In this document: piece after piece, positions 19,726 to 53,984 of the stretch
Layout: the number at the start of each line of letters is the position of its first letter
How positions within the stretch are numbered: position 1 is the first letter of the stretch
The notes under the pieces: model-generated
Told to the model about the DNA's origin: nothing
What the model saw: the letters and a program-made list of their open reading frames with translations, nothing else
Database searches by the model: none
Translations under genes and position numbers: made by a program
Assembly: GCA_000004985.1 (NCBI GenBank)
Contig: GG738877.1
DNA length: 64,000 nucleotides
Source: Naegleria gruberi
Taxonomy: Eukaryota
Direction: 5' to 3' (one strand)

Positions 19726-21490
19726 ATGCTCAACCACTCTCGTTCCGATTTGTGGTCAGGAAAATCTTCTCGGATCATCACGAGTTATTCATCACCATCT
19801 TCATGGATGATGGTTATTGTATTGGTGTTGTTGATGATTTTTAATGTGATGATATCTTTTACTAGTGCACAATATGCACCAAATCCAATTTTATATGAAG
19901 TTTCAACTCGTCCATGGTTATATGAATTATCACAAAAGTATGGTTATCAAATTCGTTTGAACAATATTCCAATGAAGGAATTTCAAGCATTGAAAAATCA
20001 AGGAGTTCAATATATTTGGATGATGGGAATGTGGACTATTGGAAACTATGGTAGATGTAGAGCTACTGATCTTGCTATGAGAGCTACTGATTATGCAGTT
20101 AATTTACCTGATTATCAAATGAGTGATATTATTGCATCTCCATATCAAGTTTTGGAATATACTGTCAATCAACAAGAAATAGGAACTGATAATGATTTGA
20201 TTAATTTGAGACAACAATTGAATGCTATGGGATTAAAATTAATGCTCGATTTTGTTCCAAATCACAGTGCAGTTGATAATCCACTCGTTGAAACAAATTC
20301 ATCCATGTTTATTTTGGCTCCACCAAATCTTTCACCACCTTATGATGCTTATTCCTATCTTCCAAATGGAGTTGCATACGGAAAGGATGGTTATTTTCCT
20401 GCTTGGACTGATACTGCTCAATTGTAAGTGTTGAAATATATTGGTCAATATTAACTTGAAATAATTCAATAGCAATTATTGGAATCAACAGACTAGAAAT
20501 TACCAATTAGGAAATCTAATGAAAGTTGCCAGCATGGCTGATGCAATCAGATGTGACATGGCTATGTTGCCACTCAATTCTCAAATTACCAGAATCTGGG
20601 GACAACAACTCAATCAAAGAGGATACACTCAACCATCGACTGAATTTTGGCAATGGGCAATTTCAACTGTTAAGTCCAAATTCCCAAATACTATCCTTTT
20701 AGCTGAGGTTTATTGGGGTTTGAATGGAGAATTACAACAACTTGGATTTGATTTTACCTACGATAAGGATTTATATGATGCCTTGACAGCTAACAGTAAT
20801 ACTGCTAATATTCATACTTATTTCCTCAACCAACCTTTGTCTTATTTGGCTCACTCTGCTCACTTTGTAGAAAACCACGATCAATCAAGAGCTGTTGCTA
20901 ACTTTGGTTCTGTTGATAGAGCTAATGCTGGTATGTTCAAATTTTTTGCATTTTAACACGAGTTATAATTGACCAAAATAGCCTGTGCCATTTCCTTCTC
21001 TGTACCTGGTATGAAATTTAGTTATTTCGGCCAATGGGTTGGTAAGAAGAATCCACTCGTTGTTCAATTGAGAAGAAGTACCACTGAACCAGTTCAACCA
21101 GATGCTATTAATTTCTATACTGCTTTCATTCCAATTGTTGCCAACTTTACAGTTCCTGGATCAGTATTCTCATACAAGACTGTTGGTCAAAGCAATATTG
21201 CCTATCGTGTATTCGCTTTCCATTGGAGAGTTCCATCCACTGGCTACAGCTATTTGGTTACTGTTAATTATAGTGCTAATCAAGGAAATGGTGCAATCAT
21301 TCTCGATGATGTACCAAATACTAATACTGATATTATTTTTGTTGAGCTCTTCTCTGGAACTCAATATTCCAGAAATGCTCAACAAGTAAGACAAAGTGGT
21401 TTGTTTGTGGTTTTGGATAGTTATCAAGTTCAGATTTTTAAATACCAATCCACCACTCCTTCCTTTAAATTTAATATTAAAAAACATTAA
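19726..21490 (+). CDS. Secreted GH13 alpha-amylase-family glycoside hydrolase, 3 exons (19726-20423, 20497-20930, 20982-21490)
   Basis: Signal peptide (MMVIVLVLLMIFNVMISFTSA). GH13 region I (LMLDFVPNHSA), region II-like (ADAIRCDMAML), and, across the second intron, ANAACAISFSVPGMKFSYFGQ (region IV-like). Introns gtaagt..gactag (73 nt) and gtatgt..aaaatag (51 nt) restore one frame across the three ORF-track pieces. Confidence 0.8.
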
Positions 21491-21587: not shown

Positions 21588-21891
21588 TTATTTTTCGGCA
21601 CGTTTAAAAGCTTCAGTAGTTCTAAGTTGTTCTCTCTTTTGCAATTGTTGTAATTCTTGTCTGACATCTCTCTTTGGAAGACTAATTTACAAAATAATTA
21701 TTAAATATATTATTCTCATCCACACTTACTAAACAGGTGTTGCAACACCAGCAACCATGACAGCAAGAGCCAAAGTTGATAATGTGGCCACTCTCTTTCC
21801 AGGATGTCTATTCCGATGATCATTAAATTATTTTCCACAATAAAACAAACCTCCAAATATCCTTGATTAAGTCCAATGCACTTTTAACCAT
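21588..21891 (-). CDS. Small 71-aa single-TM protein, 3 exons (21851-21891, 21730-21807, 21588-21681); not in the ORF track
   Basis: ATG in an aaaaATG context. Introns of 43 nt (gtttgt..gaatag) and 48 nt (gtaagt..aaattag) keep the frame. Product is MVKSALDLIKDIWRRHPGKRVATLSTLALAVMVAGVATPVYLPKRDVRQELQQLQKREQLRTTEAFKRAEK*, with a basic N-terminus, a hydrophobic segment and a charged coiled tail. Confidence 0.4.
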
Positions 21892-22321
21892 TTTTTAAAT
21901 TTATTAAAAATAAATGCAATGTAATCATTCATTCATAATTATTAATTCAGATTTGAAAGCCCTATTTTCTTGTGAGAGTGTAGATACCTTAGTTACTTAG
22001 TAGACGCCTTGATAGAAATAATACCAGTGGCTCATTACAGCTGCAGTAAGCCGATACGGATATGTTAAAGATAATGAAGCTCCATTTAGCTGGCTTTACG
22101 GATCCTCCTTATTGAACAAACTGTTCAAACAATTCGAAAAAAACTGAAAAAACACACTGCTTATCCAACACAGAGTTGTAGCAGAAGGAAGTTTGTTATC
22201 AAGGAAAATTGTCTTGCGCCGAAGGGTTCTCATTGAGGATTTTAATTGAGGAGGAATAAGCGTTATCATATCATCATCATAAATTGTATTATATTAACAA
22301 CGAAAAAACATATAGAGCAGT

Positions 22322-23227
22322 ATGCAAGCTAAACAACAATTGTATTATTTTGTAGATATTCAGGAACATAATTATGATTTAAAAGTTTTAGCAAGTACAT
22401 ACTTTCCTCACAGCAATATTAACGTGAGGAATATTCATCAGAGTTATGGAGTCAAGAAACGACAAGTTGAAATGTTAAAACAATATGGAGGAAACAATTA
22501 TATAGAACCTCCTGTGGAATCGTCGTTTCTCTGCTTTAAGAACAAGCTTAATCCGAGGGATAAGTTTTTAAAAACCTTCCTCGATGCCCTCCCTCAGGAA
22601 CATCCAGTTATTAGAGATGGAAAGTTGGAAATCATTCCCACAAGGGACATTGTCTATGGTGATATTATCATGTTGGAGGAAGGAAACATATGCCCAGCCG
22701 ATTGCCGATTTTTGTGGATTGATAAGGAGAAGGAGCTCCTTGTTGACATTACTTCAATTAAGGGAAAGCAGTTTCCTCCTGTACATGCCTCTCTCTTTGC
22801 AACTGATTCTCTCCCATTGAAAACTCAAAATTTAATCTTCTCAGGATGTAAAGTATTACAAGGAAAGGCAATTGCCTTGGTGATTGCAGTTGGATCTAGG
22901 TGTGTACAGGTGAGATTAATTGATTACTTGTTGAAAGAGGCTGCTATGGCGGAAGGGAAAACAATTCCAGAGGAACCAAATGAAAACACAGCAGTTCCAC
23001 TCAGTACAAGGGCTAGGTCACACAGTATGCAATATACAGCTGGTGGTCGGTCGAGTACAGATAGTAAGAGCAGTAAGGGTGACAGTTTGACAGAGAAAAA
23101 GCCACGACAAATTAATAGAGCTGCATCACTATTCAAAGCTAAACAAAGCTCACCTGTTAAAACATATAATCGAAAGTACTCTCTCACTAAGTCTTCTCCG
23201 TCCTCTTCACCACCAACGTTTGTGTAA
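22322..23227 (+). CDS. Orphan P-type-ATPase-derived protein with only the N-terminal and actuator (A) domains, degenerate, with a Ser-rich tail; possibly a pseudogene
   Basis: EMLKQYGGNNYIEPPVESSFLCFKNKL parallels the PMA1-type N-terminus (..R.KYG.N.+.E.KE..FLKFL). VIRDGKLEIIPTRDIVYGDIIMLEEGNICPADCRFL...LVDITSIKGKQFPP...FSGCKVLQGKAIALVIAVGSRC parallels the A-domain (VLRDG...GDI..+.G.IIPADGR+...L.VDQSALTGESL...F+G.V.+G....V.ATG). TM1-2 and the TGES motif are missing, and there are no P, N or TM domains. Confidence 0.5.
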   Translation: MQAKQQLYYFVDIQEHNYDLKVLASTYFPHSNINVRNIHQSYGVKKRQVEMLKQYGGNNYIEPPVESSFLCFKNKLNPRDKFLKTFLDALPQEHPVIRDGKLEIIPTRDIVYGDIIMLEEGNICPADCRFLWIDKEKELLVDITSIKGKQFPPVHASLFATDSLPLKTQNLIFSGCKVLQGKAIALVIAVGSRCVQVRLIDYLLKEAAMAEGKTIPEEPNENTAVPLSTRARSHSMQYTAGGRSSTDSKSSKGDSLTEKKPRQINRAASLFKAKQSSPVKTYNRKYSLTKSSPSSSPPTFV

Positions 23228-23313: not shown

Positions 23314-24231
23314 TTATTTACTCAATTGAGCAATGTAGACATAGTATGGGATTTTAACTCTACCCAAAGTGAGTTTTGAAACAAGTGGAATCTTACCCAT
23401 GTTTTCTTCAACATGAACAGAATCGAAATGACCTTCAAGGTATGGCAAGTGATCGGCAGAAACATTCAATCCAAAGACCAAATTCAAAAGGGTTTGCCAA
23501 AAGACACGAGTGATAATGTTGTGTTGTTTGGCTCCCTTAGTACTCTTTCTGGAAACATAATAGTCAGTAACGGCCAAAACACCATTCTTACTCAAAAGTT
23601 CATTCTTGATCTTTTCCAACAATTCAATCCAATTTGGAACACTTGTCAAGGAATAACTAATTGTGACAAGGTCAACCTTTGATTGCAAAGCAACTTGTTG
23701 AAGTTCTTCAACAGTAATAACTTCAACTAAATCACCCAATTCTTCAACAGATTTGAGTGTAGATTGACAAGCCTTGGTATTGACAAGATAAATCTTCTTG
23801 AAGTTATTCTTCAATTCTCCATCTTTACATTGAGAAGCCATTTCCTTCAAGTCAGCTTGAGCTCCAAGATCGAGCCAAAACAATTTGGATGCACCTTTGG
23901 ATTGGACAACCTTTTCGTAAGCGAGACTTGACAATCCTTGTCTACCATGTTGGAATTGTCTGATCACTACCAAAATATAATGTAATAACAATTGTTGCAC
24001 TAAACCCCATACATATTGCAACTGTTCCTTGTAAGTCTTTGAACCGGAAATAACAGGTTCTAACAATTGACCATAGAGTGACTTTAATTGCACAATAACT
24101 AGCAAACTGTACTTGTAAATGAGAGAGGCAAGAGTCGATTCTACAACCTTGTTATAATATTCATTCTTCTTTACCTTTCCGTACAACTCACTATTCTCAA
24201 TCTTGTTCAGCACTTGATTAAATTGCTCCAT
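23314..24231 (-). CDS. Hypothetical protein with a class I SAM-methyltransferase-like fold and a degenerate motif I
   Basis: LFWLDLGAQADLKEM (motif-I-like but lacking GxGxG) and VDLVTISYSLTSVPNWIELLEKIKNELLSKNGVLAVTDY (motifs II/III-like). Confidence 0.3.
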   Translation of the reverse strand: MEQFNQVLNKIENSELYGKVKKNEYYNKVVESTLASLIYKYSLLVIVQLKSLYGQLLEPVISGSKTYKEQLQYVWGLVQQLLLHYILVVIRQFQHGRQGLSSLAYEKVVQSKGASKLFWLDLGAQADLKEMASQCKDGELKNNFKKIYLVNTKACQSTLKSVEELGDLVEVITVEELQQVALQSKVDLVTISYSLTSVPNWIELLEKIKNELLSKNGVLAVTDYYVSRKSTKGAKQHNIITRVFWQTLLNLVFGLNVSADHLPYLEGHFDSVHVEENMGKIPLVSKLTLGRVKIPYYVYIAQLSK

Positions 24232-24594: not shown

Positions 24595-26241
24595 TTAATT
24601 GGCAGAATTGGAGGCATTCTTAAACTTTTTGATAGTATCAGGATTCAAATCAAGGTCTTCCAAATCTCTCACAATTTCAGCTTGGTTAATTTTTTGCCTT
24701 CTCGTTTGTTCTTCTATAAATTCGAGGGCTTTAGGTTCTAAGGATCGTTGCCACTTCTTTCGTTCCATTTCAATGGAGAGTTTGTACAATTCGAACAAGT
24801 TTCCATCCCTTGATGTGGTATTTTCACATAAAAACTGTTCGCATTTGTCAGAAAGAGATGACAATCCGTATAAATCTGAAATGTGCATCAGTTCAACTGC
24901 ATTTGACTTTGTAATCTCTGCCTTTTCACAATATATATATCTTAATAGAGTTTGAAGTGTGGATTCTAAAGAGAATTGTTGTAGTTCCATAACTGGTAAC
25001 TCATGTGTGGCTTCTTGCTGTTTGAATTTCAAACCATCTTCAAAATCACAATTTCCAAGTACATCAAAGAAAGCACATCTAGACATTGCAATACTCTTGT
25101 GGCATAGCAAAATCTTTCCATCAGTAGAGTTGACCATCTTTAGTCCCATGTTGCAACTCGTTTTTTTCAAGGAATCAATCTTTGACTTGCAATCTTTAAA
25201 GAGATAATTAATAGGATCCAAATCATTCAATAGAACATCCTCTTGTTGGTTATCATTTGCCTCTCTTAGCATATTGAATATGTGGTCAACCATACTTTTC
25301 ATATTGAGCATAACTCCAAGTTCCATCAAACAGTAAATATCATACTTATCACTAATTGGTGGTATTTTGGTAGTGTAGAGATAGGTAAGAGCCAACTCAA
25401 AATGTTCCTTATTGGCGTTAATAGATCCAAAATCAATACACTTAAGATTTGTCTGCGCCATTTCGAAATTTTCCTTTGCTAATGCTTGATTGCACATATC
25501 TAAATTAGGTATTCCAAGTATCATACTATACCTAGATTTCAATTCTTTCAATTTGTTTTTTTCCTGAGTAATAATCCTTGTTAGTCTCTGCTGAATAACA
25601 TTAGTATTATTTCTTTTCACATAATTTTCAAAATCTTGAGCACTCAATTTACATAAATTCATTTCATGCTTATCAAGAGTTGGTAAATTAATCACTTTTT
25701 CTAGTTGAACTTTCTTCAAAGCAAATAATACAATTTGAGGCCATCTCGAGAGAATTATCCAACTTTGACATTTGAACTCTGTTGGCTGATTTTGATCCTT
25801 AAATTTAAATCTCAATATCATATCCTCTCCACTATTTGATTCTCTCAATAATTGATCACTACTTGAATTATTTAAATCATTGTGTAGACATTTCATTAAT
25901 AATTTATGCATCACTGAAAGTACATTGCTTTCCGTATTCATTCCAGAACTGGTCGATGGAATATTCTTGTAATCATTGAATAATTTCAAAACCGATCTTG
26001 TTTGTAATGAAAGGGCATTCCACCAACATCTTCTATACTCATCGTCACGTAAACCCAACTCGGAGAGATACTTTACCAATGAAATTCTCCCACACAGTGA
26101 AGCATAATAGAGGAGAGAATTTCCATGTGCATCTTTGGCATGTAAAAGTTGTCTGGTTTGGTCATTGGTTAGGAGGTTTTTAACACCATGCAAATCACCT
26201 GTTTTGCACATTGAAAATATGGGAGAATCAGAGTGTTCCAT
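24595..26241 (-). CDS. Ankyrin-repeat and BTB/POZ-domain protein (ABTB-like)
   Basis: The ORF track extends to 26307 with a non-ATG start; the first ATG gives MEHSDSPIFSMCKTGDLHGVKNLL. Two ANK repeats (DAHGNSLLYYASLCGRISLVKYL) and a BTB domain (CHKSIAMSRCAFFDVL...LESTLQTLLRYIYCEKAEI...AVELMHISDLYGL). Confidence 0.75.
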   Translation of the reverse strand: MEHSDSPIFSMCKTGDLHGVKNLLTNDQTRQLLHAKDAHGNSLLYYASLCGRISLVKYLSELGLRDDEYRRCWWNALSLQTRSVLKLFNDYKNIPSTSSGMNTESNVLSVMHKLLMKCLHNDLNNSSSDQLLRESNSGEDMILRFKFKDQNQPTEFKCQSWIILSRWPQIVLFALKKVQLEKVINLPTLDKHEMNLCKLSAQDFENYVKRNNTNVIQQRLTRIITQEKNKLKELKSRYSMILGIPNLDMCNQALAKENFEMAQTNLKCIDFGSINANKEHFELALTYLYTTKIPPISDKYDIYCLMELGVMLNMKSMVDHIFNMLREANDNQQEDVLLNDLDPINYLFKDCKSKIDSLKKTSCNMGLKMVNSTDGKILLCHKSIAMSRCAFFDVLGNCDFEDGLKFKQQEATHELPVMELQQFSLESTLQTLLRYIYCEKAEITKSNAVELMHISDLYGLSSLSDKCEQFLCENTTSRDGNLFELYKLSIEMERKKWQRSLEPKALEFIEEQTRRQKINQAEIVRDLEDLDLNPDTIKKFKNASNSAN

Positions 26242-26591
26242 TTTTTTTGTTCGAATGAGTTCACTTACAATTATTCGAATTCGGTTGAGAATGAAAAGAA
26301 GAAACAATGCTAAGAAAACAAGAGATTCAATTCTGTATTACTACATAATTCAAAGCTTCATAAAAATAGTAAGCTAAATGACTCCGAAGTTACTGAAGAA
26401 AAATCAATAGAAGAGAAAAACGTAAATTAAGAGGTTAACATTATTTGTAAATAATTGAAACCATGGTTGGGATGTATTCATTAATAGAATCATAAGAATC
26501 AACAGATTAAATTTCAGTATATCAAATAAAGCACTAAATCCTCATACCCTTACTTTGATATGCCACGTGTTATTACTACCTTCATTAAAAA

Positions 26592-53908: not shown

Positions 53909-53912
53909 AAAC

Positions 53913-53984
53913 GCCCACCGTGGGGGTCGAACCCACGACCACAAGGTTAAGAGCCTTGCGCTCTACCGACTGAGCTAGACGGGC
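53913..53984 (-). tRNA. tRNA-Lys, anticodon CUU
   Basis: GCCCGTCTAGCTCAGTCGGTAGAGCGCAAGGCTCTTAACCTTGTGGTCGTGGGTTCGACCCCCACGGTGGGCG. Cloverleaf with A-box TAGCTCAGTCGG, B-box GGTTCGACC, a CTCTTAA anticodon loop and a 7-bp acceptor stem with two G.U pairs. Nearly identical to animal tRNA-Lys-CTT. Confidence 0.95.

What the first reader, a model, noticed from the sequence alone, without database searches (positions are those of the whole stretch)
22322..23227. Orphan, degenerate P-type-ATPase actuator domain as a stand-alone soluble protein
The first 190 or so aa align block-by-block with the cytoplasmic N-terminus and A-domain of PMA1-type P-type ATPases (YG.N..E, VIRDGK..I...IV.GDII.L..G.I.PAD.R, ...F.G..V..G.A..+V.A.G). 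The TM1-TM2 hairpin is deleted, the catalytic TGES loop is replaced by IKGK, and no P, N or membrane domains follow, only a Ser-rich tail. It is either a decaying gene fragment with an intact ORF or a domesticated A-domain.
Basis: partly seen in the sequence, partly recalled or inferred. Interest (0 to 1): 0.6.

Follow-up and report, generated by a model that had tools for sequence, protein, structure and literature searches.

The report
Conserved soluble pseudo-actuator domain of ion pump
This Naegleria gruberi gene encodes only the "actuator" part of a membrane ion pump, without its membrane anchor and with its catalytic loop changed; five amoeba species keep it under strong selection, so it is a working, repurposed protein whose function is still unknown.

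Summary

The nearest pumps are type IIC (Na,K/H,K-like), not PMA1-type. The aligned motif is TGES->KGKQ, not IKGK.

Of the two readings offered, "decaying fragment" is rejected and "domesticated A domain" is supported. Intact single-exon orthologues exist in N. fowleri, N. lovaniensis, an uncultured Naegleria and Willaertia magna, all next to the same methyltransferase gene. N. fowleri vs N. lovaniensis dN/dS is 0.043 for the domain, as low as the neighbouring tRNA synthetase. The loop is always basic-Gly-basic (KGK/RGK/RGR).

The most likely role is a non-catalytic binding module, possibly acting in trans on a pump's phosphorylation site; this is inferred, not shown. I found no literature on it. 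Similar anchor-less mini-proteins occur in Hydra, a rotifer and diatoms.

The parts
22322..23227 (+). Complete single-exon gene NAEGRDRAFT_69227 (301 codons plus TAA stop)
   Evidence: ORF list. 100% identical to XP_002675523.1. Orthologues start at the same Met and are also single contiguous ORFs.
22364..22525 (+). N-terminal A-domain segment (aa 15-68), homologous to the cytoplasmic N-terminus of IIC-type pumps: EHxYDL..L...(Y/F)FPHSNI(N/D)...S.G(V/I)...(V/I)E.L...G..N...P
   Evidence: tblastn of nematode IIC pump P0025 aa 41-93, 39% identity, E=2e-4. Multiple alignment with protist and nematode pumps. pLDDT 91-98. No PF00690 hit in Pfam.
22526..22561 (+). Junction (aa 69-80, FLCFKNKLNPRD) that stands in place of the TM1-TM2 hairpin of pumps
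   Evidence: Two-piece tblastn alignment leaves pump aa 94-156 without a counterpart. The alignment shows a ~53-55-residue gap in all five orthologues. No hydrophobic segment here.
22592..22906 (+). A-domain beta-barrel (aa 91-195), PF00122 match
22760..22771 (+). KGKQ loop (aa 147-150, AAG GGA AAG CAG) at the position of the catalytic TGES motif
   Evidence: HMMER alignment SSLTGESEP / TSIKGKQFP. T147 and E149 are invariant in 119 pump sequences and are K/R in all five orthologues: KGK, KGK, KGK, RGK, RGR, using different codons.
22904..22951 (+). C-terminal helix (aa 195-210), corresponding to the start of the A-M3 linker. The pump motif T..G is replaced by (C/R)VQ(V/I)
   Evidence: DSSP on the model gives H195-210. 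T190->V, T194->C/R and G197->V/I in all orthologues.
22952..23224 (+). Disordered, basic, Ser/Thr-rich tail (aa 211-301)
   Evidence: pLDDT <50 for 223-296. S 19%, pI 10.1, net charge +8. Tails of all orthologues are basic (pI 10-11.5) but poorly alignable. The tail is still coding: tail dN/dS 0.083 between N. fowleri and N. lovaniensis.

Best explanation
The gene encodes a functional, soluble 'pseudo-actuator' protein.

Origin. In an ancestor of Naegleria and Willaertia, the two halves of the A domain of a type-IIC-like (Na,K-ATPase-like) P-type pump were joined directly. These halves are the N-terminal segment and the TM2-TM3 loop. The join came from loss of the TM1-TM2 hairpin, and the protein was cut off before TM3. 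A basic, disordered Ser/Thr-rich tail follows.

What it cannot do. It has no P, N or M domain, so it cannot transport ions or hydrolyse ATP. It cannot perform the A domain's catalytic job either, because the Glu that activates the water for aspartyl-phosphate hydrolysis and its neighbouring Thr are both Lys/Arg.

What is shown: the fold, the solubility, the loss of catalytic motifs, and strong purifying selection on both the domain and the new basic loop.

What is inferred: it works as a non-catalytic binding module. My preferred specific mechanism (about 0.3 on its own) is that it docks in trans on the P/N headpiece of a full-length P2-type pump. There it would place the basic-Gly-basic loop at the acidic phosphorylation site, in the way a substrate-trapping pseudophosphatase works. 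It would thereby modulate, probably inhibit, the pump cycle. The basic tail would serve as a membrane-proximal or phosphorylation-regulated tether.

The confidence value given refers to the shown core: a domesticated, selected, non-catalytic soluble A domain.

IIC affinity: TIGR01106 is the best subfamily in all four orthologues tested, at 51-73 bits. The N-terminal motif EHxYDL...P.SNIN...S.G is shared with nematode and protist IIC-like pumps.

Not part of a pump: there are no further pump segments in 64 kb or within +-8 kb of the orthologous loci of N. fowleri, Naegleria sp. (L002) and W. magna, by tblastn. The flanking called genes at all loci, N. lovaniensis included, are unrelated and many lie on the opposite strand.

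Selection:
- Orthologues exist in N. fowleri, N. lovaniensis, Naegleria sp. (two metagenomes) and Willaertia magna. They score 359-379 bits against 65 bits for the next hit.
- The same methyltransferase gene lies tail-to-tail downstream in N. gruberi, Naegleria sp., N. fowleri and W. magna (tblastn); N. lovaniensis has a similarly placed and sized minus-strand gene that was not compared with the N. gruberi gene.
- Distant pairs have pS 0.73-0.81 (saturated) against domain pN 0.28-0.33.
- N. fowleri vs N. lovaniensis gives domain dN/dS 0.043 (bootstrap 0.021-0.074) and tail 0.083. Neighbours give 0.066 (ThrRS), 0.122 and 0.149.

Pseudo-domain pattern: pump-invariant T147, E149, S150, T190, T194 and G197 are replaced in every orthologue, while structural Gly/Pro/Asp positions are kept. 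The replacement loop is always [KR]-G-[KR], with K/R swaps using different codons.

Role of TGES/Glu183 in shielding and hydrolysing the aspartyl phosphate: PMC11468904.
Against: No expression, localisation or interaction data were available. No paper mentions the gene.

The trans-docking mechanism is pure inference. Several residues of the A-M3 linker motif that pumps conserve are also replaced. The canonical A-P interface may therefore not be preserved.

An intact pump already has its own tethered A domain, which would out-compete a soluble one unless affinity is high.

No IIC-like pump labelled Naegleria turned up among the closest full-length pumps. Naegleria is reported to be ouabain-insensitive with ENA-type pumps (PMC7576160). 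The putative partner is therefore unidentified.
Confidence: 0.85

Rival explanations
1. The A-domain fold has been repurposed for a job unrelated to pumps. It would be a scaffold whose basic loop and strongly basic tail bind some other acidic ligand, such as phosphoproteins, acidic phospholipids or nucleic acid. It shares the 'domesticated' core with the best explanation but differs in the partner.
For: Motifs that pumps use in A-P/A-M3 coupling (T190, T194, G197, TGES) are all replaced. Many family-specific invariant residues have no pump counterpart: QLYxF-DIQEH at the N-terminus, Y112, P153, L164, K167, Q196, Y202. The tails carry net charge +6 to +18. No IIC-like Naegleria pump was identified.
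Against: Nothing points to any particular alternative ligand. The only structural relatives are pumps. The loop at the former catalytic position is the most strikingly re-selected element, which fits continued use of that face.
Confidence: 0.4
2. A decaying fragment of a pump gene (pseudogene) whose ORF happens still to be open.
For: The catalytic motif is lost, the protein is truncated, and the low-complexity tail looks like read-through sequence on first sight.
Against: Five species keep an intact ORF at the same locus although synonymous sites are saturated. dN/dS is 0.043 for the domain and 0.083 for the tail, equal to or lower than housekeeping neighbours. In 20,000 nucleotide shuffles of each of the four CDSs tested, none gave a stop-free frame. 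The AF2 fold is confident.
Confidence: 0.02
3. One exon of a normal multi-exon pump gene whose TM and P/N exons were missed.
For: Naegleria genes can have introns; the neighbouring amylase-like gene is split. A GT follows codon ~196.
Against: No pump-like coding segment lies elsewhere in 64 kb or in the orthologous loci. The gene is flanked closely by genes on the opposite strand. The TM1-TM2 loss lies inside one contiguous ORF. The tail is under purifying selection as coding sequence. Annotations deposited separately for N. gruberi, N. fowleri, N. lovaniensis and W. magna, plus gene calls on two metagenomic contigs, all give the same single-ORF gene.
Confidence: 0.02

Closest known systems
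Actuator (A) domain of type IIC P-type ATPases (Na,K-ATPase and H,K-ATPase alpha subunits), and IIC-like pumps of protists and nematodes (e.g. P0009, P0013, P0025)
   Same: Same fold, built from the same two segments: the N-terminal helices plus the beta-barrel between TM2 and TM3. These are the best sequence, profile and structure matches. They share the N-terminal signature EHxYDL...P.SNIN...S.G and the GD...PAD(C)R, VD and N.xF.G core motifs.
   Different: It is not embedded in a pump: there are no TM1-TM2, TM3-10, P or N domains. TGES is replaced by [KR]G[KR]x, and the T..T..G linker motif is replaced. It carries a disordered basic tail. It scores 51 bits against a family cutoff of 946 for TIGR01106.
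   Same: General A-domain homology. TIGR01647 is the second-best profile for the N. gruberi protein (46.8 bits).
Pseudoenzymes such as pseudophosphatases of the STYX type (functional analogy, from my own knowledge)
   Same: A conserved catalytic fold, catalytic residues lost, and strong purifying selection. The A domain is the pump's built-in dephosphorylation catalyst (PMC11468904), so a TGES-dead copy is formally a pseudo-phosphatase module.
   Different: The fold and ancestry are unrelated. No ligand or trapping activity has been demonstrated here.
Other TM1-TM2-less N-terminus+A-domain mini-proteins found here: Hydra vulgaris XP_065645570.1, Didymodactylos carnosus CAF0863591.1, Nitzschia inconspicua KAG7341577.1/KAG7358491.1, and metagenomic relatives
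   Same: The same architecture: a truncated Cation_ATPase_N joined directly to PF00122, 190-265 aa, no TM segments, and a degenerate TGES (TSKD, TGNK/TGNG/TGNR, TGHD/TGQT/TGER).
   Different: They are only 25-34% identical to the Naegleria family, no closer than pumps are. Their junction sequences and loop substitutions differ. They are therefore probably independent derivations, or very old splits. None has a basic-Gly-basic loop.

Membership tests
Functional P-type ATPase (HAD-IC P-type ATPase superfamily) | P domain with the DKTGT phosphorylation motif | tested here: not met
   Pfam finds only PF00122. tblastn with a pump fragment reaching DKTGT and with six full-length pumps finds nothing beyond the A domain in 64 kb.
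Functional P-type ATPase (HAD-IC P-type ATPase superfamily) | Nucleotide-binding (N) domain | tested here: not met
   No PF13246/PF00702 hit. No tblastn hit.
Functional P-type ATPase (HAD-IC P-type ATPase superfamily) | Transmembrane domain (at least 6 helices; TM1-TM2 hairpin between the two A-domain segments) | tested here: not met
   A ~53-63-residue gap lies exactly where pumps have TM1-TM2. The protein ends in a disordered tail instead of TM3. The hydropathy maximum of 1.66 falls on the A-domain beta strands.
Functional P-type ATPase (HAD-IC P-type ATPase superfamily) | TGES (TGE) dephosphorylation loop in the A domain | tested here: not met
   The loop is KGKQ in N. gruberi and [KR]G[KR]x in all orthologues. 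T and E are invariant in the 119 pump sequences aligned.
Pfam PF00122 (E1-E2_ATPase, A-domain region) | Score above the gathering threshold | tested here: met
   48.7 bits against 28.1, E=7.9e-13. Only profile positions 4-93 of 181 match, i.e. the soluble part. The orthologues score 57-75 bits.
P-type ATPase A-domain fold | Three-dimensional fold formed by the N-terminal segment plus the beta-barrel | tested here: met
Type IIC (Na,K/H,K-ATPase alpha; TIGR01106) | Best-scoring subfamily profile, and full-length score above the cutoff | tested here: inconclusive
   It is the best subfamily in all four orthologues tested (51.5, 58.9, 70.4 and 72.8 bits) but far below the 946-bit cutoff, because only the A domain is present. 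This supports ancestry from a IIC-like pump, not membership as a pump.
Type IIIA (PMA1-type; TIGR01647) | Closest subfamily by profile and structure | tested here: not met
Pfam PF00690 (Cation_ATPase_N) | Significant profile match in the N-terminal 70 residues | tested here: inconclusive
   Pfam gives no hit even at E<=10. However, tblastn with a nematode pump N-terminus gives E=2e-4, and the alignment to IIC-like pumps is collinear.
Pseudoenzyme / pseudo-domain (operational definition) | Catalytic fold kept, catalytic residues lost, sequence under purifying selection | tested here: met
   Fold. Loss of TGES. dN/dS 0.043.
Expressed protein-coding gene | Transcript or peptide evidence | not testable with these tools
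   No EST, RNA-seq or proteome data were accessible. All contigs carrying the orthologues are genomic. No paper cites the locus tags.

The most novel reading that the evidence does not exclude
Soluble pseudo-actuator proteins are a recurrent, so far unrecognised class of eukaryotic proteins. They would have arisen repeatedly, in heteroloboseans, cnidarians, rotifers and diatoms, by excision of the TM1-TM2 hairpin from IIC-like pumps together with loss of the catalytic TGES. They would act in trans on the phosphorylation site of P-type pumps or other HAD-fold phosphoenzymes, as a new kind of pump regulator.
Probability: 0.2. Interest if true: 0.8.

Novelty: new variant of a known kind. Interest (0 to 1): 0.6.

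Why it matters
As far as I know, and in the papers searched here, the A domain of P-type ATPases is described only as a tethered part of a pump, where it acts as the built-in dephosphorylation catalyst and gate actuator. A free-standing, membrane-less copy kept under housekeeping-level selection shows that this fold can have a life outside the pump. This is all the more striking because its catalytic Thr and Glu are both switched to conserved basic residues.

If it binds pumps in trans, it would be a new type of regulator and a natural 'substrate-trap' tool for E2P states. One of the species that carries it is the pathogen N. fowleri.

Similar anchor-less, TGES-degenerate mini-proteins occur in Hydra, a rotifer and diatoms. 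This suggests a general and repeatable evolutionary route rather than a one-off oddity.

Tried and rejected
- Adjacent or distant exons of a normal pump: tblastn with N-terminal pump fragments and six full-length pumps against the window and three orthologous loci found only the A-domain ORF.
- A close strain pair for dN/dS: P0002 and P0006 differ by only 6 nt (3 synonymous, 3 non-synonymous), which is uninformative.
- Distant pairs: synonymous sites are saturated, so only pN/pS could be used. The N. fowleri / N. lovaniensis pair solved this.
- Enrichment of basophilic kinase motifs in the tails: not significant beyond composition, except in N. fowleri at P=0.018. I dropped it as evidence.
- The parent pump in Naegleria: a profile of the closest IIC-like pumps returned metagenomic and EukProt sequences and prokaryotic pumps, but nothing labelled Naegleria among the best 120. 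Unresolved.
- Literature: no hits for the locus tags, for 'P-type ATPase A domain-containing', or for stand-alone/soluble actuator-domain terms.
- AFDB fold search: the library was unavailable.
- PMA1-type ancestry: considered and rejected.
- Common origin with the Hydra, rotifer and diatom mini-proteins: between-group identity (25-34%) is no higher than mini-to-pump identity, and the junctions differ. A single origin is therefore not supported, though not excluded.

Full report
**What is there.** The window is Naegleria gruberi nuclear DNA. ORF 22322..23227(+) is 100% identical to the 301-aa 'predicted protein' XP_002675523.1 / EFC42779.1 / NAEGRDRAFT_69227 / UniProt D2VK07. It matches Pfam PF00122 (E1-E2_ATPase) at E=7.9e-13, 48.7 bits against a gathering score of 28.1. 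The match covers aa 91-195 on profile positions 4-93 of 181, which is the soluble A-domain part of the model. No other Pfam family matches. The best matches among solved structures are Na,K-ATPase alpha subunits (47 bits, aa 71-200), followed by H,K-ATPases, MgtA, SPCA and SERCA. In these alignments the pump's SSLTGESEP lies opposite TSIKGKQFP.

**The membrane hairpin is missing inside one contiguous ORF.** A full-length nematode IIC-type pump (P0025) aligns to the window in two pieces. Its aa 41-93 match 22364-22525 (39% identity, E=2e-4) and its aa 157-275 match 22562-22924. The roughly 63 pump residues in between, which form TM1-TM2, face only 12 codons. A multiple alignment with protist and nematode IIC-like pumps shows the same clean gap of about 53-55 residues. 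It also shows a shared N-terminal signature, EHxYDL..L....P.SNIN..N...S.G. Hydropathy analysis finds no membrane segment; the maximum of 1.66 falls on the A-domain beta strands.

**Nothing pump-like lies nearby.** I ran tblastn with N-terminal pump fragments (the longest reaching DKTGT) and with six full-length pumps. Neither found any other pump segment in the 64-kb window. The gene sits between a small three-exon gene on the minus strand (21594-21893) and a methyltransferase-like gene on the minus strand (23314-24231).

**It is a conserved family, not an orphan.**
- An exhaustive profile search of 1.84 billion representatives, a word-indexed profile search and cluster look-ups found orthologues in four more taxa. 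These are N. fowleri (FDP41_008876, 327 aa), N. lovaniensis (C9374_014233, 330 aa), Willaertia magna (ABK040_013856, 274 aa) and an uncultured Naegleria-like organism seen in two metagenomes (267 aa).
- They score 359-379 bits, against 65 bits for the next hit.
- All are single contiguous ORFs that start at the same Met.
- A tblastn search found the same methyltransferase-like gene tail-to-tail immediately downstream in Naegleria sp., N. fowleri and W. magna, at 37-47% identity to the N. gruberi gene; N. lovaniensis has a similarly placed minus-strand gene of similar size.
- None has pump domains nearby.

**Selection.**
- Between distant pairs, synonymous sites are saturated (pS 0.73-0.81). 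The domain shows pN 0.28-0.33 and 50-58% amino-acid identity. The tail is nearly unalignable but keeps its composition: S/T/K/R-rich, pI 10-11.5, net charge +6 to +18.
- The N. fowleri / N. lovaniensis pair is not saturated (dS about 1.1). It gives dN/dS = 0.043 for the domain (bootstrap 0.021-0.074) and 0.083 for the tail. Three neighbouring genes give 0.066 (threonyl-tRNA-synthetase-like), 0.122 and 0.149.
- The gene is therefore constrained at least as strongly as its housekeeping neighbours. This rules out the 'decaying fragment' reading.

**A pseudo-domain pattern.** I compared the five orthologues with 119 pump sequences. Structural positions are kept: H16, G43, P91, R98, G100, G113, D114, P125-A126-D127, R129, V141-D142, G148, N170, F173, G175, G181 and G191. 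Pump-invariant functional positions are replaced in every orthologue: T147->K/R, E149->K/R, S150->variable, T190->V, T194->C/R and G197->V/I. The replacement loop is itself conserved as basic-Gly-basic, encoded by different codons:

| Species | Loop | Codons |
|---|---|---|
| N. gruberi | KGK | AAG GGA AAG |
| Naegleria sp. | KGK | AAG GGT AAG |
| N. fowleri | KGK | AAG GGG AAA |
| N. lovaniensis | RGK | CGA GGT AAG |
| W. magna | RGR | AGG GGA AGG |

. This indicates selection for positive charge exactly where pumps place the Glu that activates the hydrolytic water and shields the aspartyl phosphate (PMC11468904).

**How it most likely works.** The following are shown: a soluble, folded A domain without catalytic residues, with a disordered basic tail, under strong purifying selection. 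The rest is inferred. I think it acts as a non-catalytic binding module. By descent, the most economical partner is the P/N headpiece of a P2-type pump or another HAD-fold phosphoenzyme. The basic loop would sit at the acidic phosphorylation site, in the manner of a substrate-trapping pseudophosphatase. I put this specific mechanism at about 0.3. Three points count against it. The A-M3 linker motifs are also rewritten. A soluble domain would have to compete with the pump's own tethered A domain. No IIC-like pump labelled Naegleria was found among the closest pumps, and Naegleria is described as ouabain-insensitive with ENA-type pumps (PMC7576160). A pump-unrelated role for the fold is about equally likely.

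**Comparison with what is known.** As a domain it belongs to PF00122 and has the A-domain fold. As a protein it fails every other defining feature of a P-type ATPase: DKTGT/P domain, N domain, membrane domain and TGES. UniProt's automatic label for the N. fowleri and N. lovaniensis proteins is 'P-type ATPase A domain-containing protein'. I found no paper on such proteins or on these locus tags. I rate it a new variant of a known kind: a domesticated pseudo-actuator domain.

**Noticed beyond the finding.** The same architecture, a truncated N-terminal segment joined directly to the A-domain barrel with no TM segments and a degenerate TGES, appears in at least three other sequence-distinct groups:
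- Hydra vulgaris XP_065645570.1 and metagenomic relatives (TGNK/TGNG/TGNR).
- The rotifer Didymodactylos carnosus and a metagenomic relative (TSKD).
- The diatom Nitzschia inconspicua and relatives (TGHD/TGQT/TGER).

Within-group identity is 36-57%. Between-group identity is 25-34%, no higher than to pumps, and the junctions differ. Two metagenomic members are contiguous ORFs with no called pump gene beside them. This suggests repeated evolution of soluble pseudo-A-domains, but I only partly followed it up.

**Verdict.** The PMA1 attribution and the 'orphan' label are wrong. The function remains unknown. Interest is moderate to high (0.6).

Noticed in passing
Related proteins P0014, P0016, P0021, P0032, P0039, P0042, P0051, P0126; locus L006 6001-6672: TM1-TM2-less 'N-terminus + A-domain' mini-proteins with degenerate TGES also occur in Hydra vulgaris (XP_065645570.1), the rotifer Didymodactylos carnosus (CAF0863591.1), the diatom Nitzschia inconspicua (KAG7341577.1, KAG7358491.1) and several metagenomic eukaryotes. 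They form three further sequence groups. Within-group identity is 36-57% and between-group identity is 25-34%. The junctions differ, which suggests recurrent independent origin.
   Followed up: partly
window 23314-24231 (-): A class-I methyltransferase-like gene (weak PF13489 hit here; clear Ubie/Methyltransf hits in the Willaertia orthologue). tblastn finds it as the tail-to-tail downstream neighbour of the A-domain gene in Naegleria sp., N. fowleri and W. magna as well; N. lovaniensis has a similarly placed gene. This is conserved microsynteny; no functional link is known.
   Followed up: partly
window 21594-21893 (-): A small three-exon gene with two short GT-AG introns. It encodes a protein of about 70 aa with one hydrophobic segment (MVKSALDLIKDIWR / HPGKRVATLSTLALAVMVAGVATPV / ..LPKRDVRQELQQLQKREQLRTTEAFKRAEK). 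It is conserved in the uncultured Naegleria contig (L002 2981-3189). Its identity was not determined.
   Followed up: no
window 19726-21490 (+): An alpha-amylase-family gene split into three ORFs by short introns. It is 72-82% identical to the uncultured Naegleria orthologue, the best-conserved gene of the neighbourhood.
   Followed up: no
window 24595-26307 (-): A 570-aa ankyrin-repeat + BTB/POZ protein. Synteny with the uncultured Naegleria contig breaks here.
   Followed up: no
window 53912-53984 (-): tRNA-Lys (CTT), the only tRNA found in the window.
   Followed up: no
Proteins P0009, P0010, P0013, P0015, P0017, P0019, P0200: A clade of IIC-like pumps, mostly metagenomic plus two EukProt entries. 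They have long low-complexity N-terminal extensions and the same EHxxxL...(I/F)(N/D)...S.GL N-terminal signature. They are the closest full-length relatives of the Naegleria mini-protein, but their organisms are unidentified and none is labelled Naegleria.
   Followed up: partly
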